Shown one piece after another: positions 19,393-42,171 of a DNA stretch of 64,000 bases (its first letter is position 1; each line of letters starts with the position of its first letter). Under the pieces are notes generated by a model that was given only the letters and a program-made list of their open reading frames with translations, ran no database searches and was not told the DNA's origin. The stretch lies in assembly GCA_963774265.1 (NCBI GenBank), contig CAVZDU010000005.1, positions 416,001-480,000 on the forward strand. The letters run 5' to 3'. Source of the DNA: an uncultured Chloroflexia bacterium. GTDB taxonomy: Bacteria > Chloroflexota > Anaerolineae > CG2-30-64-16. Position numbers and translations under genes: made by a program.

Positions 19393-19545
19393 ATGAAGGT
19401 ACTTGTCAGCGGCGGCGCCGGCTATATCGGGAGCACGGTTGCACAGCAGTTGTTGGTGGCCCAGCCACCCCGAGCTGCGCGAGATCGTCGAGAGCGCCCG
19501 GCTGTGGCACCAGGACCATCCACACGGTTACGGAGAACCCAATGA
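19393..19545 (+). pseudogene. galE: UDP-glucose 4-epimerase remnant with large internal deletion
   Basis: MKVLVSGGAGYIGSTVAQQLL joined out of frame to WWPSHPELREIVESARLWHQDHPHGY. Confidence 0.85.
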
Positions 19546-20692
19546 CGGTTGATCGACAAGTCGTCCAGGCCTTTGAGGAGCGTTTCGGCGCGGCGCCGGC
19601 CTTTGTGGTGCGCGCGCCCGGCCGAGTCAACCTGATCGGCGAGCACACCGACTATAACGACGGGTTTGTGCTGCCACTGGCCATCGACCGGGCCGCGTGG
19701 ATCGCGCTGCGGCCCGTGCCGGGTTCGGTGGTGACCGTCCACTCCCTGGATTTCGGTGAGGTGGACACCTTCGATCTGGACCGCCTGACCCCACAACCCG
19801 GCTCGTGGGCCAATTATGTGCGCGGGGTGACCTGGGCGCTGCAGCAGCGCGGCTATACGCCGGCCGGTTGGGAGGGCGTGATGGCCGGTGATGTGCCACT
19901 GGGCGCGGGGCTCTCGTCCTCGGCCGCGCTGGAGATGGCTGTGGCGCGCGCGTTCGCGGCGGTGGCCGGCTGGCCTTGGGATGCGCCGAGCCATGGCGCT
20001 GAGCGGTCAATTGGCCGAGAATAAGTGGGTGGGTGTCAACACCGGCATCATGGACCAGATGATCTCGGCCGCGGGTGTGGCCGAACACGCGCTCCTCATC
20101 GACTGCCGTTCGCTGGACACAACGCCCATCCCGCTGCCCGCGGGCTTTGCGGTCGTTGTGCTGGATACGTCCACGCGGCGCGGGCTGGTCGGTTCGGCGT
20201 ACAACGAGCGCCGTTTGCAGTGCGAGACCGCAGCCCGCCATTTTGGGGTTAAGGCGCTGCGTGACGTCAGCGACGCGGCAACTCGAGGCGGCGAGATCCG
20301 AGCTCGATCCCCTGATCTACCGCCGCGCCCGGCATGTCGTCACTGAGAACGACCGGGTGTTACAGGCGTGCGATGCGATGCGGGCCGGCGATGCCCACGC
20401 AGCGGGCCGGCTGTTGGACGCCAGCCACGTCAGCATGCGCGACGATTTCCAGATTTCCAACCGCGAATTGGATATCTTCGTCGAGATCGCGGCGGCCCAC
20501 CCGGCGTGCGTAGGCGCACGCATGACCGGCGGCGGGTTTGGCGGGTGCGCGGTGGCCCTGGTTGGGGATGCGGGTATTCCGGGGTTCGTCAAGAGCGTGG
20601 CTGCCGAGTACACAGTTCGTACCGGCCTGTCGCCGCGCGTCTATGTTTGCCGCGCGACTAATGGCGCGGAGGCTGTGGCCTGCGCTCCTTAA
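19542..20692 (+). CDS. galK: Galactokinase (two apparent frameshifts, near 19985 and 20280)
   Basis: [31 protein letters not shown] and [11 protein letters not shown] motifs across three frames. Confidence 0.92.
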
Positions 20693-20699
20693 TTACGGC

Positions 20700-21896
20700 T
20701 CACACGCGTAGCCCCTTGCCCCTGGGTGCTGCGAATACCGCGTTCACCAGCGGCAGCGCAGCCAGATTCAGCGCAGCCAGGATGAGGAAGGTCGTGCGAT
20801 AGCCCACCGCATCGACCAGCATGCCTGACACTGCCAGGCCGATCCCCGTGCCCAGATTCGCAATGGCCATGAGGATGGCGAACATAGAGGCGGCGATCCG
20901 CAGGTCGGAGAACCGCATCGCGGCCGCAAAATAGACCGCTTCGTAGAAGCCGAACGCAAATCCGAACGCAATCACCAGCGGCCAGGCAATCTTCGGCCCG
21001 TTGATGAGCGCGAGCACCGCGATGGCGACGAGCGCAGCCATCAGCGCGCCCTGCACGGCGCGGCGATGTCCCAGCCGATCAGCTCGCCGCCCGCCGTCCA
21101 CCCCGCCGAGAATCACGCCCACGCCCCACGCGGCGGTGTAGAACCCCGCGGTAAGGTAAGAGATGCCGTACTCGGCCTGAAGGAACGGATTGACCACCTG
21201 GTTAGCGCCGTTGATGATGAGCGAGTAGAGCGCGCCCAGCAGCCCCAGCGCGATGACAGGCCAAGCCGCGAACGACCGGAACGCGGCCCACTCGAAGCGG
21301 CGCTCCGGCGGGCGGGCCGGCTCTCGTGTCATCAGCACGAGGGGCAACGGCAGCAGCGTCACCGCGGCCAGCGTCCAGAAAGCGATCTGCCACGACGAAA
21401 GCTGCGCCAGCGCACCAATTGCTGCGGACACGATGACCACGCCCGCCGCGCGGCCGCCCACCATGATTCCTTGCACACGGCCCTGTTCCTCTACCGTGGT
21501 GGTGTCGAGGGCGAGGCCGTCCGTGCAGGTGTCGTAGAGCGCCATGCCCGTCATAATGAAGAATGCCAGGCCGGCGAACAGCCCGAATTGCGTCGCCGGA
21601 TTCAGGAAGGGCACGATGACGAGGCCGCCGGCCTGCATGAGCAGACCCAGCACGATGTACGGGATGCGGTGGCCGCGGCCGAGCAGGTTGAAGCGGTCGC
21701 TCACCATGCCGAGGAAGATCTTGAGCACGAACGGCGTCAGCGCGATCGCGCCGAACAGCCCAATCTGCCCCATCGTGAGGTTGAACGAGAGCAGGTAGAG
21801 CGCGTTGAGCGCGGTGAAGTAGGAGAGGATGCTACCCTGTGCGAAATAGAGCAGGGCGAATAGGGCGTAGCGCGCGGTGCGGGGCATGGGCGACAC
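20700..21896 (-). CDS. MFS transporter (AmpG/acetyl-CoA transporter-like)
   Basis: LLYFAQG and D..TDGLA motifs; about 12 TM helices. Confidence 0.88.
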   Translation of the reverse strand: MSPMPRTARYALFALLYFAQGSILSYFTALNALYLLSFNLTMGQIGLFGAIALTPFVLKIFLGMVSDRFNLLGRGHRIPYIVLGLLMQAGGLVIVPFLNPATQFGLFAGLAFFIMTGMALYDTCTDGLALDTTTVEEQGRVQGIMVGGRAAGVVIVSAAIGALAQLSSWQIAFWTLAAVTLLPLPLVLMTREPARPPERRFEWAAFRSFAAWPVIALGLLGALYSLIINGANQVVNPFLQAEYGISYLTAGFYTAAWGVGVILGGVDGGRRADRLGHRRAVQGALMAALVAIAVLALINGPKIAWPLVIAFGFAFGFYEAVYFAAAMRFSDLRIAASMFAILMAIANLGTGIGLAVSGMLVDAVGYRTTFLILAALNLAALPLVNAVFAAPRGKGLRV

Positions 21897-22012: not shown

Positions 22013-23038
22013 TCAGTCCGCGGTCACGGGCAGCGGGATGGTCCAGCTTGCCCCAAGGATCGGGCGGAGGCCGCGGACTTCGAGCCGGGCCTGGCTCGCG
22101 CCGCCGGATTTCCCGAACCAACCGGGATAGGGCCGGTAGATGAGTATGATCTCGCGCACGCGGTCGGGCGCCAAGAGTTCACCGCGGGATGCGCAGCAGA
22201 AGTAGACCAGGTCGCCTGCTCGACCCTGGGTATCGACGAGCTGAAAGAAGCGTTGGTCCAGGTCGAGGGCGATTGGCTGGTTGCCGGTGTTCCTTATGGC
22301 GAAGGTGAAGCTCAAGGCCGGCGTGGCGCCGTCCGTCGCGACGATCTCGCCGTACTCGAAGCGCGTCAGGCGCAGAAAATCCGTGATCGTCTCGGATGCC
22401 AGGATCCCTGGCTCGTAACGATACTCGGTCGGCGTCAGGTATTCCGGGTCGACGAACACGTAGTTCGAGACGAAGGCCACTGCGGGAAAGGGGGTTGGTC
22501 GGGCCGGCGTCCAGGTTGGCGGCGGAATGGTGGCGGTCGCAGTTGAAGGCACGAGCGTGGCGGTGGGGGATGCGGTCGCCTCGGTGCGAGCGGTCGCGCT
22601 GGGCGAGGCTTCTGCGATCGGGCCCGGTGGGGCGGTCGCCGGGCGCAGCACCAGCACCCCAATCACCGCGAGTACCAGCACGCCGGCCGCGATCGCGAGA
22701 CGCGGCCGGGGGGTCAGCATACGCCACGGCTGTGGCTGGGCCGCGATCACAAGCTCCGGCGCGGCCACAGTACTGCCCGCATGGAATGCGGCGACTGCCG
22801 CGGCCAGCTCAGCATTGTCGCCGTAGTCTTGCTGGGTGACCGTGATGACCGCGGCCACCCGATCGCGGTTCAGCGCCTCGTTCAGCACCTGGTGCCAGAC
22901 ATCGATCGCAGGGCCGTCGAAGTCGATGAAGGCCGCATCCAGGCCGGCTCCCGCGGCCACGCGCCGAGCATCGGCCTCGCGGGTGTACAGATCGGCCAGG
23001 ACGGCCTGCAAATCATTGAGTGCCGGGTCCCAGGACAT
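22013..23038 (-). CDS. EAD1-like domain + TM helix + Pro/Thr linker + Ig-like (DUF4352-like) domain
   Basis: N-terminal LQAVLADLY..AGLD..I..W..VLNEA, one TM, a PTAT-rich stalk and a beta-rich C-domain. Confidence 0.8.
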   Translation of the reverse strand: MSWDPALNDLQAVLADLYTREADARRVAAGAGLDAAFIDFDGPAIDVWHQVLNEALNRDRVAAVITVTQQDYGDNAELAAAVAAFHAGSTVAAPELVIAAQPQPWRMLTPRPRLAIAAGVLVLAVIGVLVLRPATAPPGPIAEASPSATARTEATASPTATLVPSTATATIPPPTWTPARPTPFPAVAFVSNYVFVDPEYLTPTEYRYEPGILASETITDFLRLTRFEYGEIVATDGATPALSFTFAIRNTGNQPIALDLDQRFFQLVDTQGRAGDLVYFCCASRGELLAPDRVREIILIYRPYPGWFGKSGGASQARLEVRGLRPILGASWTIPLPVTAD

Positions 23039-23041
23039 GGG

Positions 23042-24049
23042 CTACCGCACCCCCTTGTCCGTCAGCCCCGCGATGACCACGTTGATGTGGATCCCCTGGT
23101 TGCGCATATACTTCTGGTTCGATTCCGGTTCGACCAGCCAGCCTCCCTTGTGATGCAGCGCGACGACCCGCCAATCGGTGTCGAACACTGGCGATCCCGA
23201 CGACCCTTCCAGCGTATCTGTCATGTACTGCACGCGGCGCGCATCGGCATACGCGACCACGTTGTGCGACAACGCGATCTGCTTCGGCCCGCCGCCAGGG
23301 TGCTGGACGATAATGACTTCATCGCCTTTGCGAGGGGCGCCGTCGGGGAGCGGTGCGAGCGGCAGCACACCCCACTTCGCGGCCGGATCACCCTTCACTT
23401 TGACGACGGTCCAGTCGTCGCCGCCTTGATCGTCCGTGGGCGAGGTCGCGAATACCTGATCAGGCGCCAGCTCGTAGCGATCGATGGGTTCATCGCGGCC
23501 CTCCGGCGTTTTCTGGTAGTTGAACTCTACATAAGCGGTGGCCGCGACGTCGGACGCATTGAGCACGTGGTGGTTGGTGATCAGCAGGTTGTCCGCGATC
23601 AGGAATCCGGAGCCGCTGCTGCGGTTGGCCAGGACCACGCGAGCAACCGGCCTGGAAACCTGGTAGCCGCGGAGCAGAAATCCAATCGGCCGCAGGCTGC
23701 TGACCGCGCCCGTGATCTTCTCCAACCCGGCCGCATCCGCTGGGCCGCGCCACGCGTCCTCGGTCATCTCGGGCGTGCGAACCGCCAATAGCGCATCCTG
23801 GGCGGCTAGTTGGAGCGACTGCACCTCGGGTTTCTCCTGGCGGGCCAGGTCGATGATCGCGAGCACCTTGGCGTGGTGGTCGGCCTCGGTTAGTACGCTT
23901 TGCCAGGTGTTGACCGGCCGATCGTCCCACGCGATGTACGACGGCTCCAGCCCGACGCTGGTCAGGATGCGCTCGATATCCCGGTCGCGGTAGTACAGCC
24001 GCGCGAGCAGATCGCGCAGGTTGGCCATGGTCCGATAGTCAAGGGACAT
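23042..24049 (-). CDS. EAD1-like domain + trypsin-like (V8-type) serine protease
   Basis: GSGFLI, TNHHVL (His), DWTVV (Asp), GSSGSPV (Ser), VVALHH; no signal peptide; GGAGGT RBS. Confidence 0.9.
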   Translation of the reverse strand: MSLDYRTMANLRDLLARLYYRDRDIERILTSVGLEPSYIAWDDRPVNTWQSVLTEADHHAKVLAIIDLARQEKPEVQSLQLAAQDALLAVRTPEMTEDAWRGPADAAGLEKITGAVSSLRPIGFLLRGYQVSRPVARVVLANRSSGSGFLIADNLLITNHHVLNASDVAATAYVEFNYQKTPEGRDEPIDRYELAPDQVFATSPTDDQGGDDWTVVKVKGDPAAKWGVLPLAPLPDGAPRKGDEVIIVQHPGGGPKQIALSHNVVAYADARRVQYMTDTLEGSSGSPVFDTDWRVVALHHKGGWLVEPESNQKYMRNQGIHINVVIAGLTDKGVR

Positions 24050-24117
24050 GTTTACCTCCCGGAATCCGGCATCAGACCTGTCAGCGAGGGCGGATGGTCT
24101 TCGCACACCCTGCGCAC

Positions 24118-24190
24118 AGTGTAGCATTCCGCGCGGTTAGCGTCAATAGATTTTTGTCCCATTGACACAGGCGGCTGCAGGCCGTATTAT
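24118..24190. promoter_or_regulatory. Back-to-back divergent sigma70 promoters
   Basis: Minus strand TTGACG(24146-24141)-17-TACACT; plus strand TTGACA(24162-24167)-17-TATTAT. Confidence 0.7.
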
Positions 24191-24230
24191 TAGAATTGAC
24201 CACATACGCAATCTCTCGGGGCCGATAGCT

Positions 24231-26010
24231 ATGCCTCCAGATAGCGACTTCAACCGCCGCATGCGCGAGGTCCTGGCCGGGACCTACTCACAACGCGAAA
24301 CCGCCAGGTTGCTCGCACACGATGCTGGCCTGGATCTGACCCACATCGATCTTGCCAACGCGCCGGCTGTCTTCTGGCAGGCTATCGTCGAAGAAGCTGG
24401 ACGCGGTGGGCAAGGTCGAGGCGCTTCTTGTTGAGGCATGCCGCCGTGCGCCGGCTGTCGACGAGTTTGGTGCGCTGATCGAGGAATGCCGCACCCGCCA
24501 GGCGGCCGGCTGGCAGCCGGTGACCACGACTGGCCCCGATATGTCGCCTTCCGCGCGCGCCCGATGGCGCATCTCCAGACGGAAAATCGCCAGCCTGGTT
24601 GGGCTGGCGGTCATCGTGCTGGCCGCGGCTGCAGGCCTCTACTGGTGGCGCGTGCCTGCGACGATGACGGCGTCTTTCACCGTGGCCGTAGCCGAGTTCG
24701 GGTCGCTCAATGCCGACAACCAGCACCAAAGCTCGCCCTTCGAACAGGCTGTGAGCCGCATGGTGTACGACCGGTTGCAGGCGGTGCTGCCTTCACGTCC
24801 CTCGGGGAATCCAAACCCCATCCCTGATCCCCCTGAGGTCCAGATTTGGCACGACAGCTTGGGCTGGACTCAGAAACGCACCGCCCTTGGCATTGTAGAC
24901 GGAAGTTCGTCCGAGATACGGCAGACTGCAGCCCGGAGGCTGGCTGACGCCGTCTCCGCGGACGTGGTGATCTATGGCCAACTCGATGGAGAAGGCCGCG
25001 ACGCCAAATTGTGGTTGCGCATCTACGCGCCTGAACTTGCTGACAGCCGGGAACTGTTGGGCGAACAACAACTTGGGAGGCCAATCCCGGTCACCAACCC
25101 TACGCGGCCTGAGCTCGGAGTCAGCTACGAGATTACATCACGGGTTGAGGCGCTGGTTTTCATCGTGAAAGGGCTGAACTTCGAGTTTCAGGGTCAGCCC
25201 CAGGAGGCAGTCGACCCCTACAGCCGCGCCGCGCAGGTGCCTGGCTGGCACGATGACCAGGGGAAGGAGATCGCTTATTTTTTCATCGGCCGCGCGCAGT
25301 TGAAGGCTGGCAACTACGATGGGGCGACGGAGGCCTTTGAGAAATCCCTGGAGCTCAACCCGGAGTATGCGCGGCCGCAATTAGGGTTGGGCAACGTGGC
25401 GCTGGAGCGTGCGCGTCACCTGCCGGCCGACCAGTTGGACGCGCGGCTGCGCCTGGTCGACGAGGCGATCGCGCGTTACGCCAAGGCGCTTGCGGCTGCG
25501 ACCACTTCGCCGGGCGAGGCGCTAGCGGTCAAAGCCCGGCTCGACCGCTGCACCGCGTACCAGGTGCAAGCGCAAGCAGAGATGGAGGCAGGTCATTATC
25601 CCGAGGCCGATGACGCGCTCAACCTGATGATCGAGGAGGGGCAATTGGCCCTGGCCGGGGCTGACCAGGCGAAGTCTTCACCGGGACAGATCGCGGAGCT
25701 GCGCGGCCTGGCCCATTACGACCTGGCCATTGCGTTCCACCAGAAGGGATATCTGTGGTGTGGCCAGGATCTGACCCAAAGCGCCAGCTTCTACGAGGAG
25801 GCCCGAGCGCACTTCGCCGAGTGCGCCCGGTTTGCCGACATACAACTCGGCGAGAGCCATTCCAGGTTTGTTGATGACTTCAAAGCGGACTGCTCAAACC
25901 AGGAGGCCTGCACGCAACTGTGCATGAATAAGTTGCAGGGAGGACAAAGTGCCTGTTCGGACGATGTTTGCCTCAACCGCTGCCAGGCGTTATCTGCTGG
26001 GGGTGGCTAG
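24231..26010 (+). CDS. EAD1-like domain + TM + alpha/beta domain + TPR repeats + Cys-rich tail (one-base frameshift at about 24408-24410)
   Basis: Removing one G from the GGG run joins ..WQAIVEEAGRG to GKVEALLVEACRR; TPR AYFFIGRAQL..FEKSLELNPEY. Confidence 0.78.
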
Positions 26011-27427
26011 CCGCGCCTGGTTCGTCGTGTTGCTGTGTCTGATGGGATATGCGGGCGGAGTCCAGGCGGCCGAGAACCCGCCAGCCGCGCCGTTTTCTTG
26101 TACGGTCAGGAACGACTTCCTGCGCGCACGCCAGGGGCCGGGCGTCAACTATCCCCTGGTGAAGATGCTGCCCGCCGGCAGCCAGGTCACAGCGGACGCC
26201 CGCAATGCAGACGCGACATGGCTACACATAACTGCCTCGAATCTGAATGCCTGGGTGATGGCCGGAGACGTGGTTTGTACGGGCCAGATTAGCAAGTTGC
26301 CACTACCAAAGCCGCCGCCATCGCCGCCGCCAAAGCTGGCTGCGCTTTCCGCACAATCCAACGGTGCACCACCGTACAAGGAGCAAGAGGCTCGTTATAC
26401 TCAGGCCAACTCGCCGGTCCAGTGGGTGATCGAGTACGACGTGGATCGGGGAGGCAGAGACTATCGCCACTTCGACTTATCGGCAGCCGTGCCGGATCTT
26501 TGTCAGCTGGCGTGCCAGCGCGAGGAGCGCTGCCAGGCCTACGTCTACGCCGAGCCCGGGCTGCGGTCGGAGCGGGCCCACTGCTGGTTGAAGGATGCGA
26601 CGCCAGCGGCGGTGGCGAGTGCGGGTTTCATCTCGGGCTTCAGGACGTTCGGCGCTTGGGAAGAAGGAATCGATCGGGCCGGCAGCGATTTTGGTTCCTG
26701 GCCAGTTGGTTCCCCACAAGAGTGCATGGACCGTTGCCGGGCAGACTCGTGCTGCGCCGCGCTGGCGTACGTGCAACCGGACACGGCAGGCGGTACGGGG
26801 ACCTGCTGGCTTAAGTGGGAGGCGCCCGTGGGTGTGCGTCGCAGCGGGATTCTTTCGGCGGTCAAGCTTTTTGGAGCTATCCGTCCGCCGGGCCCCATTC
26901 CGATTGGCGCAGCGGCCGGGTGCAGCGGCAAACTGGTCTTTCGGGACGACTTCGAACGCGGCTTGGGTTCGGCATGGGCCGCCGATCCGGCGTGGCGAGT
27001 CGAGTCCCTGTCTGGCTCGTGGGTGCTGCGGGGCCGCAATCACTTTTGGGCCACGGTGCGGGGCAGCGGTTGGGGGGACTATCAGCTCTCAACCTGGTTG
27101 CTGTTGGAGCGAGGCACGATCCATCTCAACGTCCGCAAGCAGGGCCAGGATCGCTATTTCCTTGGCTTCCAGGCAGGCAACCTCTATCTGAACCGGCAGC
27201 AAGGCTCGGCCTTCCGAGACCTGACCAGGACGAGCACGCCGTTCAAATTGGGCGAGTGGCATCTGGTGCAGATGGCGGTTCGTGGCGGGCACATCGAGGT
27301 ATTCGTGGACGGCGTTGAGCAGCTTGACTATACGGATCCAAATCCGTTGGGCATCGGCACAATCGCCTTTGAAACCATTGAGAACTCGGTGGCGCAACTC
27401 GACGATGTACAGGTTTGTGTAAGGTAA
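26003..27427 (+). CDS. Secreted SH3b + 2x PAN/apple + LamG/DUF1080-like protein
   Basis: Signal peptide, LRARQGPGVNY, two DR.G.D..C..C..C..CWLK modules, FRDDF..WH..V.GG.I.VFVDG; alternative start 25964. Confidence 0.82.
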   Translation: MASRAWFVVLLCLMGYAGGVQAAENPPAAPFSCTVRNDFLRARQGPGVNYPLVKMLPAGSQVTADARNADATWLHITASNLNAWVMAGDVVCTGQISKLPLPKPPPSPPPKLAALSAQSNGAPPYKEQEARYTQANSPVQWVIEYDVDRGGRDYRHFDLSAAVPDLCQLACQREERCQAYVYAEPGLRSERAHCWLKDATPAAVASAGFISGFRTFGAWEEGIDRAGSDFGSWPVGSPQECMDRCRADSCCAALAYVQPDTAGGTGTCWLKWEAPVGVRRSGILSAVKLFGAIRPPGPIPIGAAAGCSGKLVFRDDFERGLGSAWAADPAWRVESLSGSWVLRGRNHFWATVRGSGWGDYQLSTWLLLERGTIHLNVRKQGQDRYFLGFQAGNLYLNRQQGSAFRDLTRTSTPFKLGEWHLVQMAVRGGHIEVFVDGVEQLDYTDPNPLGIGTIAFETIENSVAQLDDVQVCVR

Positions 27428-27528
27428 AGAACAGGGAGGAAAGAGACCGTGCGGCCCCTTCCCTCCCGATTGAACTCCGGCAAAGTCGCTACCCAGATCG
27501 GTTACCCGGCCGCGTCACCGTGCCAGAC

Positions 27529-28323
27529 ATGGAAACCCAAACCGACGAAACGAGCCGGTTCATGTTCGACTTCTACACCCGCTTCTACGAGGCCGCTGCA
27601 TCCAGCGCGGCCAACGCCGAGTACTGCGACCGCGTCTATGGCCGCAACCTGTGCCAGCATGGGTTCGCCGACCTGCCCGACCTGGACGAGATGGTCCATG
27701 TCAGCGGCATTTCGGCGAGCAGTCGCGTGCTCGACCTGGGCTGCGGCAACGGCATGATCGCCGAGACCATCGCAGATCAGACCGGCGCGCACGTCACCGG
27801 GATCGACTTCATCGAGCGGGCTATTCGGGATGCGCAGGCGCGCACAGAAGCCAAGCGGGAGCGCCTGGCGTTCCTCGTGATGGACATGTCCCGCCTGGAC
27901 TTCCCGCCGGCCAGCTTCGATGTCGTCATCTCGATTGACACCCTCTACTTCGGGGACGCATACGAGACGCTGCGGCCGATCATTCCCATGCTCCGGCCTG
28001 GCGGCCGGCTGGCTGCGTTCTTCGACCAGAGCTGCGGACCAGACACGCCGCAGGAAAGCTATCCCAAGGATCTGACCCTGCCCGACAGCACCGAGCTGGC
28101 CCAGGCGCTGCAACGCCTCGGGTTATCGTATCGGACGTGGGACTACACCGGGAAGATGCTGGCGCACGTGCGCCGCAGGAAGCCGGTCCTGCAGGCCCTC
28201 AAGGCGCAGTTCGAGTCGGAGGGCAACCAGTTCCTTTACGACAGCCACCTGGGCGAGGCGAACGGGATCGAACGGGCCTACGTCAACGGCGCCGGCCGGC
28301 GGTATCTGTACCTGGCGCAGTAG
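27529..28323 (+). CDS. Class I SAM-dependent methyltransferase
   Basis: VLDLGCGNG, VTGID and SFDVVISIDT motifs. Confidence 0.9.
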   Translation: METQTDETSRFMFDFYTRFYEAAASSAANAEYCDRVYGRNLCQHGFADLPDLDEMVHVSGISASSRVLDLGCGNGMIAETIADQTGAHVTGIDFIERAIRDAQARTEAKRERLAFLVMDMSRLDFPPASFDVVISIDTLYFGDAYETLRPIIPMLRPGGRLAAFFDQSCGPDTPQESYPKDLTLPDSTELAQALQRLGLSYRTWDYTGKMLAHVRRRKPVLQALKAQFESEGNQFLYDSHLGEANGIERAYVNGAGRRYLYLAQ

Positions 28324-32665: not shown

Positions 32666-35600
32666 TCACATCCCGGCCAGATGCCGCGCCACGTTGATGA
32701 ACAGGTGACGCCCGTCAGCTGTCATGAGCGGCGGGCCGGCCTGGAAGCCCCAAAGCAGGAAACGCCTCTCCCGCAAATCCTGCTGCACCAGGTTGTAGTG
32801 CGTCTCGTCCGCGGGCTCGCGGCCGATCAGCAGTATACTGGCTGGCGGCTTCTCGACCCGGACGCCGACATGGGCCGTCTTGCCATAGACCCGGACAAGC
32901 CGGTCCCGGCCCATCGGGATGCCGTATGGGCTGTGCCACACGTCGTTCACCGCATCTACAGCATAAGTGTACGCCTCGTTTCCGTGCCAGCCATTCGGAT
33001 AGCCGATGGCCAGCCCCGCCTTGCCGAAGAACGCGTAGCCACCCTCTCCAAGGCCAAGGATCGGTGTGGAGTACTGCAGCAAGGCACCCACCGCCGCGGA
33101 CGTGCCCCAGTCGGCCCCGTCGCCCGTCTCCGGTCCGATCACGATCAGGTCGTAGCTGCCCCACACGGTCTTGGCGACCTCAGCCATGGGGACAAGGTCG
33201 ACCGAATAAGAGCCCGCTTGGAGCAGTCTCTGGTAGGCCACCGCGGCCGGAAGGTTGTTCAACCAGATGTAGGCCACGCGCGGCCGCACTGAGAAGCCGC
33301 CCGTGCGATGCCGCACGAAGAGCTGATCGGAGTTATTCCTGCCCCAGCCGGTTGCCTTTACGACATACTGGCCGGGCAACAGTGCCTGAGTGAAGACTCC
33401 GCCATAGACCCCGTCGCCGGCCCTTCCGTCCATGTTCCGGCCGTCGTCGAAGAGCTGGAGCAGTTGCATCAAGTCCGAGTTTGGCCCCTTCACCAGCGCC
33501 CATACTTCCGCACCCGCGATCGGCTTCTCGTCAGACAGCACGACCAGGATCGGGATCTTCGCGCCGACGGTCCGTTCCTCAGGCGGCAGTCCGAAGCCCA
33601 GGTGCATGCTGGTTTGCGATCTGGCAGAGAGGATGAAGAGGTAGTTGGCGCACCCCTTGGCTTGTAGCTCCACCTTCCAGGGACCCCCGAGCGGATCCTG
33701 CACGCGGAACTGGTGGTGGGTGGCGTCCCGAATCTCCCGCACCTTCGGCGGATTGTGCTTGACCAGATTGCCGTCCGGGTCGGTGAGAATCATCTCGATG
33801 GAAACCGCGGGGTCGTCCCAGTTTGTCGTGAAGATCGCCTCGGGCAGCCCCTTTTCGACGGGGAGCTCGAAGATCACCGGCATCTCGCAGATGTAGCCGG
33901 TGCTCTCCCAGACCCGCTGCTGGTGGCCGTTTACCTCGCCCATAGCCTTGTAGATGTCGGCCAGACGGTTGGGGAGCGTGGTGGGCAGGTTGGGACCGGG
34001 CACGGCCGCCGGCGCCTCGGTTGCCGCGGCGTCGGCTGCGGCCGCCAGCGGCAAGATGTCCACGCCCGCCTGGAACGCGCGGCCGTCCGTGTCTGCCGCG
34101 ATATCACCCAGAAGCGCCGTATCCGCGTCGCGGCCGAGCGCCACCGTGTGCACCACCACCCGCGACGGTATGATCACGCCACCGACCGTCGCATCAGCCC
34201 AGTAGGGCGATACGTTCTCCATGCCGTCGCTCAGCAGCGCCAGGCTCCAGTCATGGTCTTCCTTACCCCGTGCGAGGAGTTCGTCATAGCCGAGCTTCGC
34301 GCCCGGGCCCAGCGCGGTCAGGTTGCCGGTCGTCAGCGCGTTGACCGCGGTCTTGGCCGCGTTCCATTCCGGATCGCCGGTGACGGTCGTCAGCCCGTAG
34401 TTAACCGCCGCGCTTGACTCAAAGGAGACTACGCCGATCATGTCGTCGACATTGGTGTGGTCGATGAACGCACGCGCGGCATTCTTCGCGGCCTCAAGCT
34501 TGTCATAATCGGCCATGCTCCCGGAGCGGTCGATCACCAGCACCTGGTCGGCGTTTAGCTTCGGCAGGTAGAATACGGCGCGCTTCTCGGTATCCGTTTG
34601 CGCGCCCAGCGTCACCTCCAGGTCATAGTAGTCCGCCGCAGGCTGCGTGTGTGCGCTGACGACGAGGAAGTGGGTGTCGAGGGAGCGATAGGCGGAGATT
34701 ACGGGGCTGTCCTGCCCGCCGATGCGCACTGTGAAGTCGCTTGCGGTGTAGGTGACCGGCGAGCTGCTGGGTGGCGTGGCGGTCTTCACCTGCACCAGGA
34801 TTTTGTCCGGATCGTTGAACGCGCCCGCGTTCGTGGGGTTGGTCTCAGTGGGCTGAAGGATGTCGAAGATCGGCGTGCAAGCCTGGTGACTGGACGCGTT
34901 GAAGTTGTCGGTCTCGCCCAGGGCGGGCTCATACTTGCCGTCTCGGTCTGTGTCCTCACAGCCATCCACCGAGCTGTCATTGTCGTTGTTGGCGTCCAGC
35001 TCCTTGCGCTGGCCATCGGAATCATGATCTGCGGTGCGCAGACTGTATGTGCCCGCGGTGTCGAACACATACTCCCGAAGGTCCTGTTTGTCCTGCACCC
35101 AGTCGTCGTCCGAATCCGCGTAGGCCGGCATAGTGTGGAAGCGATTCTGCTCGTCCCAGTCCATCACTCCGTCGCCGTCTGCGTCGGTCCAGATCCCGGG
35201 CTCATCCGAGCGAGGAGAGACAGAAGCTGGCACAGGTGGGACGTAGTAGCAGGTGATGCTCAACGAACTGTAGTTTTGCCACGTCGTGCCGCTCCAGGGG
35301 TCGAACAGCCGGATTTGCTGCGTACTATCGGCCAGGGTGCGGTAGCCGCCGATCACCGTCTGATGGCCGTTGAAGAAGCGCATGATCGGCCTGCTGGCAT
35401 CGATCCAGCCTGTCACCTGCGCGAAGGTCGGCTTGGCGTACGCGTAGTCGAAGCTGGCGCCGTTCAGCGCCCAGGACAGCATCTGGCCGCCATGGCTGCC
35501 GTCACCGCCGCACACACTGGTGGTGCGGTCGTGGCCGAGGTCACGCAGCGGGTTATTCTTCTCCCCAATATCGGCCAATGGGCTGCCCCAGTTCTCGAAC

Positions 35601-36961
35601 TGGTAGTACCCGATGCGATCCATGCTCAGATTGCCGCCGTAGTGCGTCACGATCATGGCGATGGATGCGCGGACGCAACTGTTCCGGCCGTGGGTGTAGA
35701 TCCCGTCCGGGTGCACCGCGTCCCATGCCTCTTCCTCCCCTGACGTCGCGGGGTTGCCCTCGTTGTCGCCGTCGAGACACAGCAGGGGGTTATCCTTCTT
35801 TTGGCGCAGCCATGTCATGGATAGCACGACATCAGGGCCGATGCTCAGGGCCTCCGCAGTGTCGCCTGCGGCCATAGCGCTGGTTACGGGGATCACCGTC
35901 ACGCTGAGGGGCGTCGACCAGGCGGACTGCAACGCGCCGAGGCGGCTCCGGACGCGCCACCAGAAGGCGCCACCGGGCAGCGGCGACGCAGGCGTGTAGT
36001 ATGGTTGGGTCAGCTCGACGTCGACCAACGGCGAGCTGAAGCCTGGGTCATTGTCGATCTGGAGCTGATAGGTTGCGCCGGGCACCAGCATCCAGCCCAG
36101 TGCGAAGCCATCGCTTGCCATGACCGCGCCATCGCCGACCGTGCTCCAGATGGAGCGCGGCACCGGGTTGGACGTGCCCGGGGTATGATCCTCCGGGCCG
36201 TAGGCGGCCCAGTCATCGGGGGAAAGATTGACGTGGCCGGGATAGAGGCCGATCGTTCGATTGGCGGGAAGCGGCGCGGACGCGTCCTGCGCGCCGGAGC
36301 CGACGTTGAAATCAACCCACCAGTCTGACCTCCACAGCCCGGCCGCGATCGCATCAGTGGCGCCCTCGCCGGGGGCCGCGCCGTAGGCCACGAAGTCCCG
36401 AATGGTCTGAGGGTCATGTGTTGATCCGGCATAGAGCGCGACCTGGTCGCTTTCCGGGTTGAACATGTCCACCAAACCGGGGGGTGAATGCAGCACGGCG
36501 CGGCCGTCGCCGAAGCTGTAGTCATCCGCGGCCGGGCCAAGCCCGTCGAAGTAAATCACCACGAAGCAGCCCGGCGGAATCCCCGGCAGGGCGGCCGGGA
36601 TAGTGTAGTTCCCGCCGCTCTGATTGCTCACCTGCCAGCCGCTGATGTCCGGACCGGACTCCGCGGTGGGTGCGACAAAGGATGGCGTTGCGGCCGAGCC
36701 GGCAACCGGGCCCGACCCCTTCATCACGAGGGGCAGATACAGCAGGTAGTTCGTTCCAACCGCGGACAACTCAACCCACTGGTGCTGCCCTGCAAGCGGA
36801 CGGGCCAGCACCTCGTTGAGATGGACCTCAGAAGCGCTGGTTGACATCTGATCGGCAGAGGCGGGGAAGCCGGGTGCGGCTGAGAGTGCCGGGGTCGAGC
36901 CCGCGGTGAGGAGACAGACGACGACAATCGAGCAGGCAAGTGTCGCGATTCTGATCTTCAT
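32666..36961 (-). CDS. Large secreted multidomain protein: lamin-tail, FN3-like, papain/C39-like peptidase, Ca-binding repeats, vWA, CLCA-like beta domains
   Basis: Signal peptide; HLNEV..WVEL; NSCVRASIAM/GHQTVIGGY/FDPW; DADGDG; IDRSGSM MIDAS; LFDDG..GDGVY. Confidence 0.8.
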   Translation of the reverse strand: MKIRIATLACSIVVVCLLTAGSTPALSAAPGFPASADQMSTSASEVHLNEVLARPLAGQHQWVELSAVGTNYLLYLPLVMKGSGPVAGSAATPSFVAPTAESGPDISGWQVSNQSGGNYTIPAALPGIPPGCFVVIYFDGLGPAADDYSFGDGRAVLHSPPGLVDMFNPESDQVALYAGSTHDPQTIRDFVAYGAAPGEGATDAIAAGLWRSDWWVDFNVGSGAQDASAPLPANRTIGLYPGHVNLSPDDWAAYGPEDHTPGTSNPVPRSIWSTVGDGAVMASDGFALGWMLVPGATYQLQIDNDPGFSSPLVDVELTQPYYTPASPLPGGAFWWRVRSRLGALQSAWSTPLSVTVIPVTSAMAAGDTAEALSIGPDVVLSMTWLRQKKDNPLLCLDGDNEGNPATSGEEEAWDAVHPDGIYTHGRNSCVRASIAMIVTHYGGNLSMDRIGYYQFENWGSPLADIGEKNNPLRDLGHDRTTSVCGGDGSHGGQMLSWALNGASFDYAYAKPTFAQVTGWIDASRPIMRFFNGHQTVIGGYRTLADSTQQIRLFDPWSGTTWQNYSSLSITCYYVPPVPASVSPRSDEPGIWTDADGDGVMDWDEQNRFHTMPAYADSDDDWVQDKQDLREYVFDTAGTYSLRTADHDSDGQRKELDANNDNDSSVDGCEDTDRDGKYEPALGETDNFNASSHQACTPIFDILQPTETNPTNAGAFNDPDKILVQVKTATPPSSSPVTYTASDFTVRIGGQDSPVISAYRSLDTHFLVVSAHTQPAADYYDLEVTLGAQTDTEKRAVFYLPKLNADQVLVIDRSGSMADYDKLEAAKNAARAFIDHTNVDDMIGVVSFESSAAVNYGLTTVTGDPEWNAAKTAVNALTTGNLTALGPGAKLGYDELLARGKEDHDWSLALLSDGMENVSPYWADATVGGVIIPSRVVVHTVALGRDADTALLGDIAADTDGRAFQAGVDILPLAAAADAAATEAPAAVPGPNLPTTLPNRLADIYKAMGEVNGHQQRVWESTGYICEMPVIFELPVEKGLPEAIFTTNWDDPAVSIEMILTDPDGNLVKHNPPKVREIRDATHHQFRVQDPLGGPWKVELQAKGCANYLFILSARSQTSMHLGFGLPPEERTVGAKIPILVVLSDEKPIAGAEVWALVKGPNSDLMQLLQLFDDGRNMDGRAGDGVYGGVFTQALLPGQYVVKATGWGRNNSDQLFVRHRTGGFSVRPRVAYIWLNNLPAAVAYQRLLQAGSYSVDLVPMAEVAKTVWGSYDLIVIGPETGDGADWGTSAAVGALLQYSTPILGLGEGGYAFFGKAGLAIGYPNGWHGNEAYTYAVDAVNDVWHSPYGIPMGRDRLVRVYGKTAHVGVRVEKPPASILLIGREPADETHYNLVQQDLRERRFLLWGFQAGPPLMTADGRHLFINVARHLAGM

Positions 36962-37270: not shown

Positions 37271-38512
37271 TTACCCGGTTGGGACGGCGGCTGGCACCAG
37301 TTGGACCTGATAGCCCAGCTTCTCCAGGCGTTTGACGGCCCGCCGCTTCACAGCTTCACGGTCGCGCTCGTCGAAGTAGTTGCCGCCTAAGTCCTCGTAC
37401 TTGGTTTGCCGAGTGATCAAGTAGTAACCGGTGACCAGCAAGCTGTGCCCGACGGCCATTAGCGCCCGTTGTTTGCCCCGCCGGGCCGCCAGGCGCCCAT
37501 AGAGCGCCTGGAAGTACTTGTGCTTGGTGCGGGCAGCGCCGTGCGCCGCTTCCACCAAGGCTCGCCGCAGCCAGGGACTGCCTTTGCGGGTCTTGCCACT
37601 GTAGCGTTTGCCGGCACTTTCGTTGTTGCCGGGACACATGCCCGCCCACGAAGCCAGATGCTCCGCATCCTCGAACGGCTGCAGGTCGGCCCCAATCTCA
37701 GCGACGACGATCTCCGCAATCCGCTGGTTGATCCCCGGCAGCGAGTCCCAGGCCGCCAGCGCCGGCGCAAAAGGGTGCATCTGCTCCGCGATCTGCTGGT
37801 CGAGCCGGTCGATGGCCTCGTCCAAGAAGTCGATGTGGCTCAGGTGCTGCGCCAACATGAAGCGATGATGCGCCTGCACGCGTCCACTTAGCGCCTTCTG
37901 CAGCAGGTCCAGCTTGTCCCGCAGGCGACCCTTGGCCAGCTCGGCTAACACGGCTGGATCGGCCTGGCCTTGCACGATCTGATCCAGCATCGCTCGTCCG
38001 CTGACACCCATCACATCGGTCGCCACGCTCGCCAGCTTGATGTTGGCGTCTTCCAGCACCTTCTGCACCCGATTGATCTCACTGACGCGCTCATCGCCCA
38101 GCTTGGTGCGGTAGCGAGTCAGATCGCGTAGCGCACGTAGCTCAGCCGAAGGAATGAAGCTCCCTTTGAGCAGCCCGTGCCGCAGCAGATCCGCAATCCG
38201 CTCCGCATCTTGCACATCCGTCTTGCGGCCAGCTAACGCCTTGATGTGCTCTGCATTGACCACCAGAATGGCAAACCGCCCGTCGAGCAGGTTGTACACC
38301 GGCTTCCAGTACACCCCGGTGCTCTCCATCGCCACGTGCGTGACCCCAAGGCCCTGCAACCATTCCGCCAGTGCTTCCAGGTTCTCGGTCAAGGTATCAA
38401 ACGTGCGGGTCTCCTTCACCGATTGCCCATCCGGCCCAGGCACGATCGCACACGCCACCACCGTGCGCTTGTGCACATCGATCCCGCAGCACCGCTCATA
38501 GACCACTTGCAT
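37271..38512 (-). CDS. IS110-family transposase (DEDD RuvC + Tnp domain)
   Basis: GIDVHK, AMESTGVYW, KTDVQDA and ASWAGMCPGNNESAGK motifs. Confidence 0.96.
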   Translation of the reverse strand: MQVVYERCCGIDVHKRTVVACAIVPGPDGQSVKETRTFDTLTENLEALAEWLQGLGVTHVAMESTGVYWKPVYNLLDGRFAILVVNAEHIKALAGRKTDVQDAERIADLLRHGLLKGSFIPSAELRALRDLTRYRTKLGDERVSEINRVQKVLEDANIKLASVATDVMGVSGRAMLDQIVQGQADPAVLAELAKGRLRDKLDLLQKALSGRVQAHHRFMLAQHLSHIDFLDEAIDRLDQQIAEQMHPFAPALAAWDSLPGINQRIAEIVVAEIGADLQPFEDAEHLASWAGMCPGNNESAGKRYSGKTRKGSPWLRRALVEAAHGAARTKHKYFQALYGRLAARRGKQRALMAVGHSLLVTGYYLITRQTKYEDLGGNYFDERDREAVKRRAVKRLEKLGYQVQLVPAAVPTG

Positions 38513-38519
38513 CGTGCGC

Positions 38520-38690
38520 CTCCGCTTGCTCGTGATCGCCCCAGCGGAGTGCCTGATATGCGAAGAGTCTCCTTCGCGTACTCCCCCAAATTGGAGGGCC
38601 ACAGTCTACGGTGCCTGCAGGCACTCGAGCCAAACTCCCTTGCGGACTCGTGGCACCAGGTAATTCATCCGACTTCATGCCAGGGCGTCT
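38520..38690 (-). ncRNA. Putative IS110 bridge RNA region
   Basis: Lies downstream of the internal promoter TTGACG-16-TAGAAT (38723-38696); several hairpins; short matches to target and donor junctions. Confidence 0.5.
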
Positions 38691-41907: not shown

Positions 41908-42171
41908 AAGGCCCGGTCCGGCCTGTCGAGGTTGACTCCGTGCCGGGCGTCTCCCACAGATTTGATGTCCTTTACTCAATGGCTGTGCTTGCGTATTTCC
42001 CAGCCGCCAGCATAGGTCACGACTCCACATTGCGGTGCGGCGCATCGACTTGTGCCTGAGGGCCGGCTGATGCCGGACAAACAGGAGGTGCTGCTCAGCG
42101 ATGATACTTGCCGCTCATCAGATCGACCTTGGCGTCGTGCTTTTTCATTCAATCAGCATAAGGGAGGAAAC

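What the first reader, a model, noticed from the sequence alone, without database searches (positions are those of the whole stretch)
22013..27427. EAD1 receptor-protease locus: cytosolic trypsin plus two single-pass membrane proteins sharing one adaptor domain
Seen: three adjacent genes start with the same ~80-aa helical domain (L..[VL]LA..Y..[AV]GL[DE]..I..W..[VI][LV].EA..[RK]V.A[VIL]). One fuses it to an intact His/Asp/Ser trypsin without a signal peptide. Two place it before a single TM helix with different outward domains: a Thr/Pro stalk plus Ig-like domain, and an alpha/beta domain plus TPRs plus a Cys-rich tail. A secreted SH3b-PAN-PAN-LamG gene overlaps the TPR gene, and both operons fire from back-to-back promoters. 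Known: EAD1 is an effector-associated domain described in NTPase-dependent conflict systems of multicellular bacteria and proposed to interact homotypically, like death domains. Inference: with no NTPase in the locus, surface receptors may recruit and activate the protease through EAD1-EAD1 contacts, analogous to death receptor-caspase signalling.
Basis: partly seen in the sequence, partly recalled or inferred. Interest (0 to 1): 0.85.

Follow-up and report, generated by a model that had tools for sequence, protein, structure and literature searches.

The report
Membrane sensors paired with adaptor-tagged protease
Two back-to-back gene pairs in a soil bacterium link membrane-spanning sensor proteins to a cell-internal protease through a shared small adaptor domain, which may let a bacterium turn an outside signal into an internal destructive response without the usual ATP-driven switch.

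Summary
Three adjacent genes carry Pfam EAD1: one on a cytosolic trypsin-like protease and two ahead of a single membrane helix. The third gene is split by a one-base frameshift, probably an assembly error.

The locus looks like two cassettes, not one system.

Cassette A (g2→g1) is EAD1-trypsin followed 3 nt later by EAD1-TM-beta-sandwich. It belongs to a widespread "EAD1-trypsin then EAD1-X" operon type. 14 of 26 informative loci show this layout; X is often a STAND NTPase.

Cassette B (g3→g4) is EAD1-TM-alpha/beta-TPR followed by a secreted SH3b-like/PAN/LamG protein. Its sensor module belongs to a large family whose cytoplasmic head is usually a fused CHAT protease, and sometimes TIR or EAD1. 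A secreted-protein gene follows in 17 of 19 loci.

This domain swap supports outside-in coupling of a sensor to an effector. No EAD1-NTPase was found in the 84%-complete genome.

Two results count against "two receptors, one protease". The g3 EAD1 is 20% identical to the protease's EAD1 but 51% identical to that of a distal EAD1-Shedu nuclease. A g3-type sensor gene next to g2 relatives was seen nowhere else.

Binding and function remain untested. I rate it a new variant of a known kind.

The parts
22013..23038 (-). g1: EAD1, single TM helix, Thr/Pro/Ala-rich stalk, all-beta (Ig-like) ectodomain; 341 aa
   Evidence: Pfam EAD1 30.6 bits against cut-off 24.2. Hydropathy and Cys distribution. AlphaFold model: five helices in residues 5-88, strands in 188-335. 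Weak beta-sandwich matches: YcdA at E 6.9e-4, appendage and ApaG domains at Z 8-9. Four homologues were found; the two full-length ones carry EAD1, the two partial ones show none.
23042..24049 (-). g2: cytosolic EAD1 plus S1B-type trypsin-like serine protease; 335 aa. The open frame runs on to 24127.
   Evidence: Trypsin_2 89.3 bits, EAD1 31.3 bits. GGAGG lies before the ATG at 24049. His161, Asp212 and Ser284 are invariant in 30 homologues. Closest solved sequences are V8, Spl and exfoliative-type proteases, E about 2e-9. TAG-CCC-ATG junction with g1.
24118..24190 (.). Divergent intergenic region with back-to-back promoter-like sites
   Evidence: Plus strand: TTGACA-17-TATTAT, 11 of 12 matches. 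Minus strand: TTGACG-17-TACACT, 9 of 12 matches, with TG. Three sites found against 0.9 +/- 1.0 in shuffles. Consensus matches only.
24231..24410 (+). g3, first frame: N-terminal two thirds of EAD1
   Evidence: EAD1 22.5 bits over profile positions 9-60, below cut-off. 81% identical to residues 7-63 of the intact orthologue P0123.
24405..24411 (+). One-base frameshift site inside GGTGGGCAAG
   Evidence: Intact 594-aa orthologues P0123 and P0124 read straight through. galK, about 4 kb away, is also split over three frames.
24412..26010 (+). g3, second frame: end of EAD1, TM helix, alpha/beta domain, TPR-like helical repeats, Cys-rich tail
   Evidence: 73% identical to P0123 residues 62-594. Six Lys/Arg before the TM helix against one after it; 9 of 11 Cys lie after it. 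AlphaFold pLDDT 79.7. TPR matches at Z up to 20.8.
25949..27427 (+). g4: secreted SH3b-like, PAN, PAN, LamG-like protein; overlaps the end of g3 by 62 nt
   Evidence: Pfam hits. GGGAGG before the GTG start. Signal-like helix at residues 15-33; 13 of 14 Cys lie after it. Equivalent downstream secreted-protein genes at 17 of 19 sensor loci.

Best explanation
The locus is two divergently transcribed two-gene cassettes. Both use the small helical adaptor EAD1 on the cytoplasmic side of the membrane.

Cassette A (g2 then g1) encodes a cytosolic EAD1-trypsin-like protease and, 3 nt downstream, an EAD1 protein anchored by one TM helix with an Ig-like ectodomain.

Cassette B (g3 then g4) encodes an EAD1-TM-alpha/beta-TPR-Cys-rich sensor and an overlapping gene for a secreted SH3b-like/PAN/LamG protein.

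Proposed mechanism, which is inferred: a cue at the cell envelope changes the oligomeric state of the ectodomain. For g3 this would happen together with its secreted partner. That clusters the cytoplasmic EAD1 domains, and they recruit an EAD1-tagged effector by like-with-like contact. The effector is then concentrated and activated. For g1 the effector is the neighbouring protease g2. For g3 it is either g2 (suggested by adjacency) or the distal EAD1-Shedu-type nuclease (suggested by EAD1 similarity). No NTPase switch takes part.

Shown here: domain identities, topology signals, gene coupling, recurrence of both cassette types, and replacement of EAD1 by CHAT or TIR in sensor homologues.

Inferred: EAD1-EAD1 binding, activation by proximity, the nature of the cue, and a role in conflict or cell death.
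For: - EAD1 scores above Pfam's cut-off in g1 and g2, and in the intact g3 orthologues (36.0 and 28.9 bits).
- Topology: more Lys/Arg before the TM helix than after it, and cysteines almost only after it.
- g2 and g1 are separated by 3 nt.
- Of 26 EAD1-trypsin reading frames with at least 300 nt downstream, 14 have a same-strand EAD1 gene starting within 400 nt. Their partners include STAND/NACHT proteins, a TM-NucA protein, a GIFT-domain protein and multi-TM proteins.
- A g1 orthologue follows the protease in L058.
- Of 148 representative relatives of the sensor, 119 hold the full sensor module. Their N-terminal heads are CHAT in 66, EAD1 in 2 and other in 51, of which 2 are TIR. Two CHAT-headed paralogues lie in this same genome.
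- At 17 of 19 sensor loci in the order, the next gene starts between -121 and +64 nt and has a signal-like N-terminus. The figure for control ORFs is 19% of 1164.
- The genome's 8 EAD1 reading frames include 4 TM proteins, 2 enzymes and 2 small proteins, and no NTPase.
- Kaur et al. 2020 (PMC7159879; passages read) propose that EADs couple components by homotypic contact. They also describe NTPase-less EAD1 systems.
- The EAD1 model matches a CARD at Z 8.8 and a bacterial death-like domain at Z 7.4.
Against: - No direct evidence of binding or of protease activation.
- The g3 EAD1 is only 20-21% identical to the g1 and g2 EAD1s. That is below the 29% mean for non-adjacent pairs.
- None of the 85 other loci holding g2 relatives has a clear g3-type sensor gene; the only hit is a weak, probably TPR-driven match on L027's NACHT-TPR protein. 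Relatives in the same order with g2 homologues also lack g1, g3 and g4 beside them.
- The genome is 84% complete, so an EAD1-NTPase core could be missing. Relatives in the order do have long EAD1 proteins with Walker A motifs.
- g3 is frameshifted as assembled.
- The Z scores for the EAD1 fold lie in the range that helical bundles can reach by chance (note).
- Anabaena HetF has the same CHAT-TM-TPR order and acts in cell division, not immunity (PMC8406250; passages read).
Confidence: 0.55

Rival explanations
1. These are satellite parts of a classical NTPase-centred system. The EAD1 proteins would be extra sensors and effectors that dock onto an EAD1-bearing STAND, vWA-MoxR or GTPase core. That core would be encoded elsewhere, in the unassembled 16% of the genome or under a divergent adaptor.
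For: - Kaur et al. 2020 report that solo EAD genes usually go with a cognate EAD on a core component somewhere in the genome (passages read).
- Partners of EAD1-trypsin in other loci are often STAND NTPases (L019, L027, L037).
- Relatives in the order have EAD1 reading frames of up to 1980 aa. In 5 of the 29 examined, a Walker A motif follows EAD1.
- Genome completeness is 84%.
Against: - Pfam EAD1 and a custom EAD1 profile run over all 49,885 reading frames found the same 8, none with an NTPase.
- Here the position directly after the protease is filled by a TM protein, not an NTPase.
- The same paper describes EAD1 systems that lack NTPases.
Confidence: 0.2
2. The two cassettes work independently and only happen to be neighbours. 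g1 regulates g2. g3, with g4, instead signals to the distal EAD1-Shedu-type nuclease, together with the two other EAD1-TM proteins of the same EAD1 subtype.
For: - EAD1 identities: g3 orthologue against the Shedu-nuclease EAD1 51%, against EAD1-TM-FGE-sulfatase 51%, against the contig-7 EAD1-TM protein 40%, and against g1 and g2 20-21%. The nuclease and the FGE-sulfatase protein share 79%.
- Adjacent EAD1 pairs elsewhere are on average more alike than non-adjacent pairs: 35.6% against 29.1%.
- The g2-g3 adjacency is not seen in other loci.
Against: - The similarity trend is weak: the adjacent partner ranks first in only 4 of 14 cases.
- Sensor paralogues carry a protease (CHAT), so a protease next door is a natural stand-in.
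- The two cassettes share a 181-nt divergent control region.
Confidence: 0.3
3. This is cell-envelope or cell-division housekeeping, not conflict. The TM-alpha/beta-TPR proteins, with their peptidoglycan-binding SH3b-like partners, would monitor or remodel the wall or septum of a filamentous bacterium. They would direct limited proteolysis, as HetF does.
For: - HetF is drawn as CHAT-TM-TPR. It localises to the septum, binds FtsI and is needed for division (PMC8406250; passages read).
- The CHAT part of a paralogue hits NCBIfam CellDiv_HetF at 84 bits.
- Downstream partners are secreted or lipoprotein-like. Several share the SH3b-like segment of g4.
Against: - The HetF hit is far below its cut-off of 1200 and covers only the CHAT part.
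- The heads on the sensor include TIR and EAD domains, and EAD1 partners include nucleases. These are typical of conflict systems.
- Several paralogues per genome and a patchy spread (18 of 37 genomes in the order) fit accessory rather than core functions.
Confidence: 0.2
4. g3 is a decaying pseudogene, and only cassette A still functions.
For: g3 has a +1 frameshift as assembled.
Against: - There is a single break with no lost residues, and 73-81% identity to intact orthologues on both sides.
- The break lies in a short G run.
- The housekeeping gene galK nearby is split twice, which points to assembly indels.
Confidence: 0.1

Closest known systems
EAD-coupled conflict systems of Kaur, Burroughs, Iyer and Aravind 2020 (eLife; PMC7159879), including EAD1-trypsin effectors
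   Same: Same adaptor family (Pfam EAD1). Same rule of a second EAD1 copy in the adjacent gene. Same trypsin-type effector. Several EAD1 paralogues per genome.
   Different: Those systems centre on vWA-MoxR, GTPase or STAND NTPase cores. Here no NTPase was found in the locus or fused to any EAD1 in the genome. The EAD1 partners are single-pass membrane proteins with outward-facing domains.
System 4 of the same paper: EACC1 (one conserved TM helix, sometimes fused to EAD1 or EAD2) with a caspase-bearing gene
   Same: A two-gene, NTPase-less, membrane-associated pair in which a TM component was proposed to activate a peptidase.
   Different: No EACC1 match at E <= 0.1. The protease is a trypsin, not a caspase, and is encoded 5' of the TM gene rather than 3'. 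The TM proteins carry large ectodomains.
CARD-like domain-trypsin proteases of bacterial gasdermin and related defence operons (Wein et al., bioRxiv 10.1101/2023.05.28.542683; PDB 8SRZ, 8SS1)
   Same: An N-terminal small helical death-fold-like domain on a trypsin-like protease. The EAD1 model aligns to 8SS1 at Z 7.4 (rmsd 2.4, 77 residues) and to a CARD at Z 8.8.
   Different: No sequence-level match to those entries. Those operons contain an NLR-like ATPase and a gasdermin or another effector; neither is present here.
HetF of Anabaena (CHAT-TM-TPR; PMC8406250)
   Same: Same domain order as the CHAT-headed relatives of g3: cytoplasmic protease, one TM helix, TPR outside. Found in a filamentous bacterium.
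   Different: g3 has EAD1 in place of CHAT. A paralogue matches the HetF model only over CHAT, at 84 bits against a cut-off of 1200. Homology of the outer module to HetF was not tested.
DdvA anti-sigma factor of Myxococcus xanthus (PMC11506125)
   Same: A single-pass membrane protein with a periplasmic TPR-containing sensor. It controls a cytoplasmic output linked to phage defence.
   Different: In DdvA the CHAT domain is periplasmic and the cytoplasmic part binds an ECF sigma factor. Here the protease or adaptor is cytoplasmic.

Membership tests
Pfam EAD1 (PF19955) | Profile score at or above the curated cut-off of 24.2 bits | tested here: met
   g1 30.6 bits and g2 31.3 bits. g3 as assembled scores 22.5 bits over profile positions 9-60 only, because of the frameshift. 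Its intact orthologues score 36.0 and 28.9 bits.
Pfam EAD1 (PF19955) | Small, all-helical, non-enzymatic terminal domain with a second copy in an adjacent gene | tested here: met
   Five helices in residues 5-88 at pLDDT 80-93. Three adjacent genes carry the domain.
NTP-dependent EAD systems (vWA-MoxR ternary, GAP1 GTPase, STAND) | An NTPase core component in the operon, or fused to the cognate EAD elsewhere in the genome | tested here: not met
   No NTPase among the genes from 11952 to 44676. All 8 EAD1 reading frames of the genome lack an NTPase. Limit: the genome is 84% complete.
EACC1-caspase two-gene system | EACC1 domain and a 3' caspase-bearing gene | tested here: not met
   Pfam scans of g1 and g3 at E <= 0.1 gave no EACC1 hit, and no caspase lies in the locus. 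That Pfam holds an EACC1 model is recalled, not checked here.
NucA-peptidase system (System 3 of Kaur et al. 2020) | NucA/Endonuclease_NS gene with the trypsin genes | tested here: not met
   No Endonuclease_NS in the locus. It is present in the partner gene of the related locus L025.
S1 serine proteases (Pfam Trypsin_2) | Profile match and a His/Asp/Ser triad | tested here: met
   89.3 bits against cut-off 27.6. His161, Asp212 and Ser284 are invariant in 30 homologues.
Death-fold superfamily (CARD, DD, bacterial death-like domains) | Six-helix death fold | tested here: inconclusive
   The model matches CARD 9frr at Z 8.8, 8ss1 at Z 7.4 and the FADD death domain at Z 7.3. These values are within the range helical bundles reach by chance. 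There is no sequence match.
HetF (NCBIfam NF045509) | Score at or above 1200 bits over the whole model | tested here: not met
   The CHAT-headed paralogue scores 84.2 bits, over CHAT only. P0123, the g3 orthologue, does not hit this model.
CHAT/TIR/EAD-headed TM-alpha/beta-TPR sensor with secreted partner (family defined in this report) | Sensor module after one TM helix, plus an immediately downstream secreted-protein gene | tested here: met
   g3 aligns over the whole module with the CHAT-headed forms. g4 overlaps g3, and 17 of 19 loci show the same layout.

The most novel reading that the evidence does not exclude
Bacteria may have a widespread class of single-pass "death-receptor-like" surface receptors. 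Each would have a TM-alpha/beta-TPR ectodomain and an obligate secreted SH3b-type co-receptor. It would signal from outside to inside without any NTPase, either through a fused caspase-like (CHAT) or TIR head, or through a death-fold-like EAD1 adaptor. In this genome EAD1 would wire four different receptors to two interchangeable executioners, a trypsin-like protease and a Shedu-type nuclease.
Probability: 0.3. Interest if true: 0.85.

Novelty: new variant of a known kind. Interest (0 to 1): 0.62.

Why it matters
Known bacterial adaptor-coupled death and immunity systems sense invaders inside the cell and are gated by NTPases. This locus suggests a second layout. Sensing would happen at the cell surface, the signal would cross the membrane through one helix, and the effector would either be fused to the sensor or recruited by a small adaptor.

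The sensor family offers a natural test. The same outer module occurs with a CHAT, a TIR or an EAD1 head, so "adaptor recruits effector" can be tested by domain swaps.

If the reading holds, it extends the parallel between bacterial and animal cell-death signalling from the cytosolic (inflammasome-like) branch to a receptor-like branch. It would also define a new, easily recognised two-gene cassette for defence-system surveys.

Tried and rejected
- **Complex prediction**, EAD1 of g2 against EAD1 of g1: score 0.00, no verdict. This is not evidence either way.
- **Sequencing runs:** only two holders, each with a small share of the stretch, and no RNA holder listed. Laid contigs gave no cover over the bins 24157-24424 that hold the frameshift site. 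The assembly-error question therefore stays open.
- **The search for related loci in genome contigs:** one distant, trypsin-only hit.
- **Phylum samples:** g2 found in 3 of 401 genomes and the g3 orthologue P0123 in 1 of 401, both counts including this genome. Only three candidates per genome were scored.
- **Synteny or island test:** only the MFS gene is shared with three same-genus genomes, so the test was uninformative.
- **PADLOC:** nothing for g1, g3 or g4. g2 gave only a generic protease-domain hit.
- **NCBIfam:** nothing for g1 or g2.
- **Fold of the g3 alpha/beta domain:** not resolved, because TPR matches filled the lists. A CsgG-like link is only a lead, from an Atlas neighbour cluster scoring 0.89.
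- **Programmed frameshifting in g3:** considered and set aside. Orthologues are in frame, and galK nearby is also broken.
- **The search of earlier findings** was not open, and the closed contig look-up tool was not called. The contigs of the closest homologues (P0003, P0004, P0006, P0021/P0134, P0123, P0124) could therefore not be read.
- **Literature:** searches listed no paper describing this sensor cassette. That covers only the held library.

Full report
**What is in the sequence**

Between an MFS transporter gene (20700-21896) and a methyltransferase gene (27415-28323) lie four genes in two divergent pairs.

- g1 (22013-23038, minus strand, 341 aa) scores 30.6 bits on Pfam EAD1; the cut-off is 24.2.
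- g2 has EAD1 at 31.3 bits and Trypsin_2 at 89.3 bits.
- g2's open frame reaches 24127. An ATG at 24049 follows GGAGG, and homologues begin there. I therefore take g2 as 23042-24049, 335 aa.
- g2 ends TAG-CCC-ATG into g1, a 3-nt spacer.
- g4 (25949-27427) has two PAN_4 stretches (87.8 bits), LamG-type hits near cut-off, and an SH3_3 hit below cut-off (24.4 against 27).
- g4's GTG start follows GGGAGG and overlaps g3 by 62 nt.
- The 181-nt divergent spacer holds promoter-like sites on both strands. Three sites were found in the region, against 0.9 +/- 1.0 in shuffles. These are consensus matches only.

**The third EAD1 gene is broken as assembled**

- Frame A (24231-24410) carries EAD1 profile positions 9-60 at 22.5 bits, below cut-off. 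The rest of the gene is in the +1 frame, from 24412 to 26010.
- Two intact 594-aa orthologues, P0123 and P0124, have EAD1 at 36.0 and 28.9 bits.
- Frame A equals P0123 residues 7-63 at 81% identity. Frame B equals residues 62-594 at 73%. One extra base inside GGTGGGCAAG explains the break.
- Read through with X at the break, the product is 593 aa. A local EAD1 profile then aligns over positions 7-79 of 85.
- galK, about 4 kb away, is split over three frames. I think an assembly indel is the likeliest cause.
- I could not verify this. The two public runs that hold small parts of the stretch give no cover at the site.

**Topology**

- g2 has no hydrophobic segment. g1 and g3 each have one.
- In g3, six Lys/Arg precede the helix and one follows it. 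Nine of its 11 cysteines lie after the helix.
- Both cysteines of g1 lie after its helix, and they are invariant in its homologues.
- Without an N-terminal signal peptide, this places EAD1 in the cytoplasm and the variable domains outside. This is an inference from the positive-inside rule.
- The AlphaFold model of g1 (pLDDT 59.8) shows five helices in residues 5-88 (pLDDT 80-93). It also shows a disordered stretch at residues 90-187, which spans the TM segment and the Thr/Pro/Ala-rich stalk, and an all-beta domain at 188-335.
- That beta domain gives weak sandwich matches: YcdA at E 6.9e-4, and appendage and ApaG domains at Z 8-9.
- The g3 model (pLDDT 79.7, pTM 0.75) shows a TM helix, an alpha/beta domain and TPR-like repeats. 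The best matches are TPR proteins, at Z up to 20.8.

**Cassette A recurs**

- The g2 family is large. 1141 proteins score E <= 0.001, and 105 of the 120 listed carry both Trypsin_2 and EAD1. His161, Asp212 and Ser284 are invariant.
- I held 80 metagenome loci and 5 loci from the same order. They contain 30 EAD1-trypsin reading frames, of which 26 have at least 300 nt downstream.
- Of those 26, 14 have a same-strand EAD1 gene starting within 400 nt. One more (L037) qualifies by Pfam. Related genomes are not independent samples.
- The partners vary: AAA_16 or NACHT STAND proteins, a TM-NucA endonuclease, a GIFT-domain protein, a multi-TM protein and small helical proteins.
- g1-type partners are rare. 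Four homologues were found. One follows the protease in L058.
- Another g1 homologue, P0134, shares source and contig length with the g2 homologue P0021. That suggests, but does not show, that they lie on one contig.

**Cassette B belongs to a different and larger family**

- Homologues of the g3 sensor include proteins of 814-876 aa with an N-terminal CHAT domain (103-113 bits). A TM helix and the same alpha/beta-TPR module follow.
- This genome has two such paralogues.
- A profile search of 1.84 billion representatives returned 148 new top hits. Of these, 119 hold the full sensor module. The head is CHAT in 66, EAD1 in 2 and other in 51.
- Pfam on 50 of them found TIR_2 in 2 (82-85 bits), EAD1 in 2 (42-48 bits) and a weak EAD7 in 1. 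Most of the rest have short tails of two conserved kinds.
- Caveat: the search profile included the CHAT columns, so CHAT-headed forms are favoured in the ranking.
- In the order (37 genomes), 18 have the sensor module.
- At 17 of 19 loci with enough downstream sequence, the next same-strand gene starts between -121 and +64 nt and has a signal-like or lipobox-like N-terminus. Among 1164 control ORFs the figure is 19%.
- Four of those downstream partners share the SH3b-like segment of g4, and one shares a PAN segment.

g3-g4 is therefore one instance of a conserved cassette: a headed TM sensor plus a secreted partner.

**What this says about mechanism**

- EAD1 sits where other family members have a caspase-like protease or a TIR domain. 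Kaur et al. 2020 used the same pattern to argue that EADs are coupling adaptors (passages read).
- It supports the idea that g3 passes an outside event to an effector recruited in trans.
- The genome has 8 EAD1 reading frames:
  - g1, g2 and g3;
  - an EAD1-TM protein on contig 7;
  - an EAD1-TM-FGE-sulfatase protein (180 bits);
  - an EAD1-SduA_C (Shedu-type nuclease) protein;
  - two adjacent proteins of about 206 aa.
- None has an NTPase. In other genomes of the order, some EAD1 proteins are long and carry Walker A motifs.

**Which effector serves g3?**

- EAD1 identities split the eight domains into groups.
- g1 and g2 share 31%.
- The g3 orthologue shares 20-21% with g1 and g2. It shares 51% with both the nuclease and the FGE-sulfatase protein, and 40% with the contig-7 protein.
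- The nuclease and the FGE-sulfatase protein share 79%.
- Elsewhere, adjacent pairs average 35.6% and non-adjacent pairs 29.1%. The adjacent partner ranks first in only 4 of 14 cases. Similarity is therefore a weak guide.
- None of the 85 other loci with g2 relatives holds a clear g3-type sensor gene; the only hit was a weak match on a NACHT-TPR protein. Same-order genomes with g2 homologues lack g1, g3 and g4 beside them.

I therefore treat "g1 controls g2" as the better-supported link, and "g3 also controls g2" as open.

**Fold of EAD1**

- The EAD1 part of the g1 model aligns to a CARD (9frr, Z 8.8, rmsd 2.6, 82 residues).
- It also aligns to the Azospirillum death-like domain 8ss1 (Z 7.4) and to the FADD death domain (Z 7.3).
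- 8ss1 comes from a trypsin-like protease of a defence operon (Wein et al. preprint; passages read).
- There is no sequence-level match, and these Z values can arise by chance for helical bundles. The death-domain analogy is reasonable but unproven.

**Comparison with known systems**

- The closest described systems are the EAD-coupled conflict systems of Kaur et al. 2020. They include two types that lack NTPases: NucA-peptidase and EACC1-caspase.
- This locus meets the EAD1 and trypsin criteria. It fails the NTPase, EACC1 and NucA criteria (see the membership table).
- HetF of Anabaena has the order CHAT-TM-TPR and acts in cell division (passages read). A paralogue here matches the HetF model only over CHAT, at 84 bits against a cut-off of 1200.
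- DdvA of Myxococcus is a single-pass protein with a periplasmic TPR-CHAT sensor tied to phage defence (passages read).
- These two proteins frame the two possible roles: envelope or division control, or defence.

**Verdict**

Sensor-to-effector coupling through EAD1 without an NTPase is plausible. The swap of CHAT or TIR for EAD1 gives it real comparative support.
- The locus is better read as two cassettes. Binding and function remain untested; the single complex prediction gave no verdict.
- I rate it a new variant of a known kind, with interest 0.62.

Noticed in passing
window 19542-20692: The galactokinase gene is split over three reading frames: 19542-20024, 19888-20346 and 20075-20692. 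Its Pfam pieces lie in separate frames. This suggests indel errors in the assembly.
   Followed up: partly
window 42052-42711: A Peripla_BP_6 reading frame covers only profile positions 1-95 of 343. It may be another truncated or frameshifted gene.
   Followed up: no
G000:C5:523731-524693 (L011:9228-10175, minus strand), outside the window: An EAD1-SduA_C (Shedu-type nuclease) protein of 315 aa lies among housekeeping genes (dnaG, rpoD). Its EAD1 is 79% identical to that of the EAD1-TM-FGE-sulfatase protein on contig 2, and 51% identical to that of the g3 orthologue.
   Followed up: partly
L010:9639-10912 and L010:12263-13525 (G000 contig 6): Two adjacent EAD1 proteins of about 206 aa lie near a 420-aa trypsin protein whose N-terminus gives weak EAD2/EAD8 hits (18 bits, below cut-off). 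In another genus of the order, similar small proteins are EAD1+EAD2 fusions. These two may be bridging adaptors.
   Followed up: partly
L117:9449-12919 and L118:9555-14091 (genus g232): A four-gene operon: EAD1-trypsin, then EAD1+EAD2, then EAD2+VMAP-M0+EAD1+trypsin, then EAD1(weak)+DUF7363+EAD2. It is a chain of adaptor-tagged proteases.
   Followed up: partly
proteins P0128, P0164, P0183, P0208, P0228 and P0170-P0279: Sensor-family members without a known head have two conserved short N-terminal tails. One is a helical segment of about 70 aa. The other is a motif of the type W.RR.W..R...RDVI...VG.GA.NV..GKN..QI. Neither matches Pfam. They could be new adaptors.
   Followed up: no
window 32666-36961 and 37271-38602: A 1431-aa protein with a central VWA domain, and no other Pfam match at E <= 1e-5, lies next to an IS110-family transposase about 5 kb from the locus.
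   Followed up: no
window 27415-28323: The methyltransferase after g4 hits the PADLOC model mad2 (61 bits) over its methyltransferase domain. Its true start is probably downstream of the listed TTG. A strong hairpin lies at 27434-27467.
   Followed up: no
L100:5830-7821 (G000 contig 8): A 663-aa protein joins a g2-like trypsin domain (39% identity) to an Exo_endo_phos domain, with no EAD. Reading frames of similar length with a g2-like trypsin domain occur in five same-genus genomes.
   Followed up: partly
L024:1-645, minus strand: A CHAT-domain reading frame lies directly upstream of an EAD1-trypsin gene in one metagenome contig.
   Followed up: no
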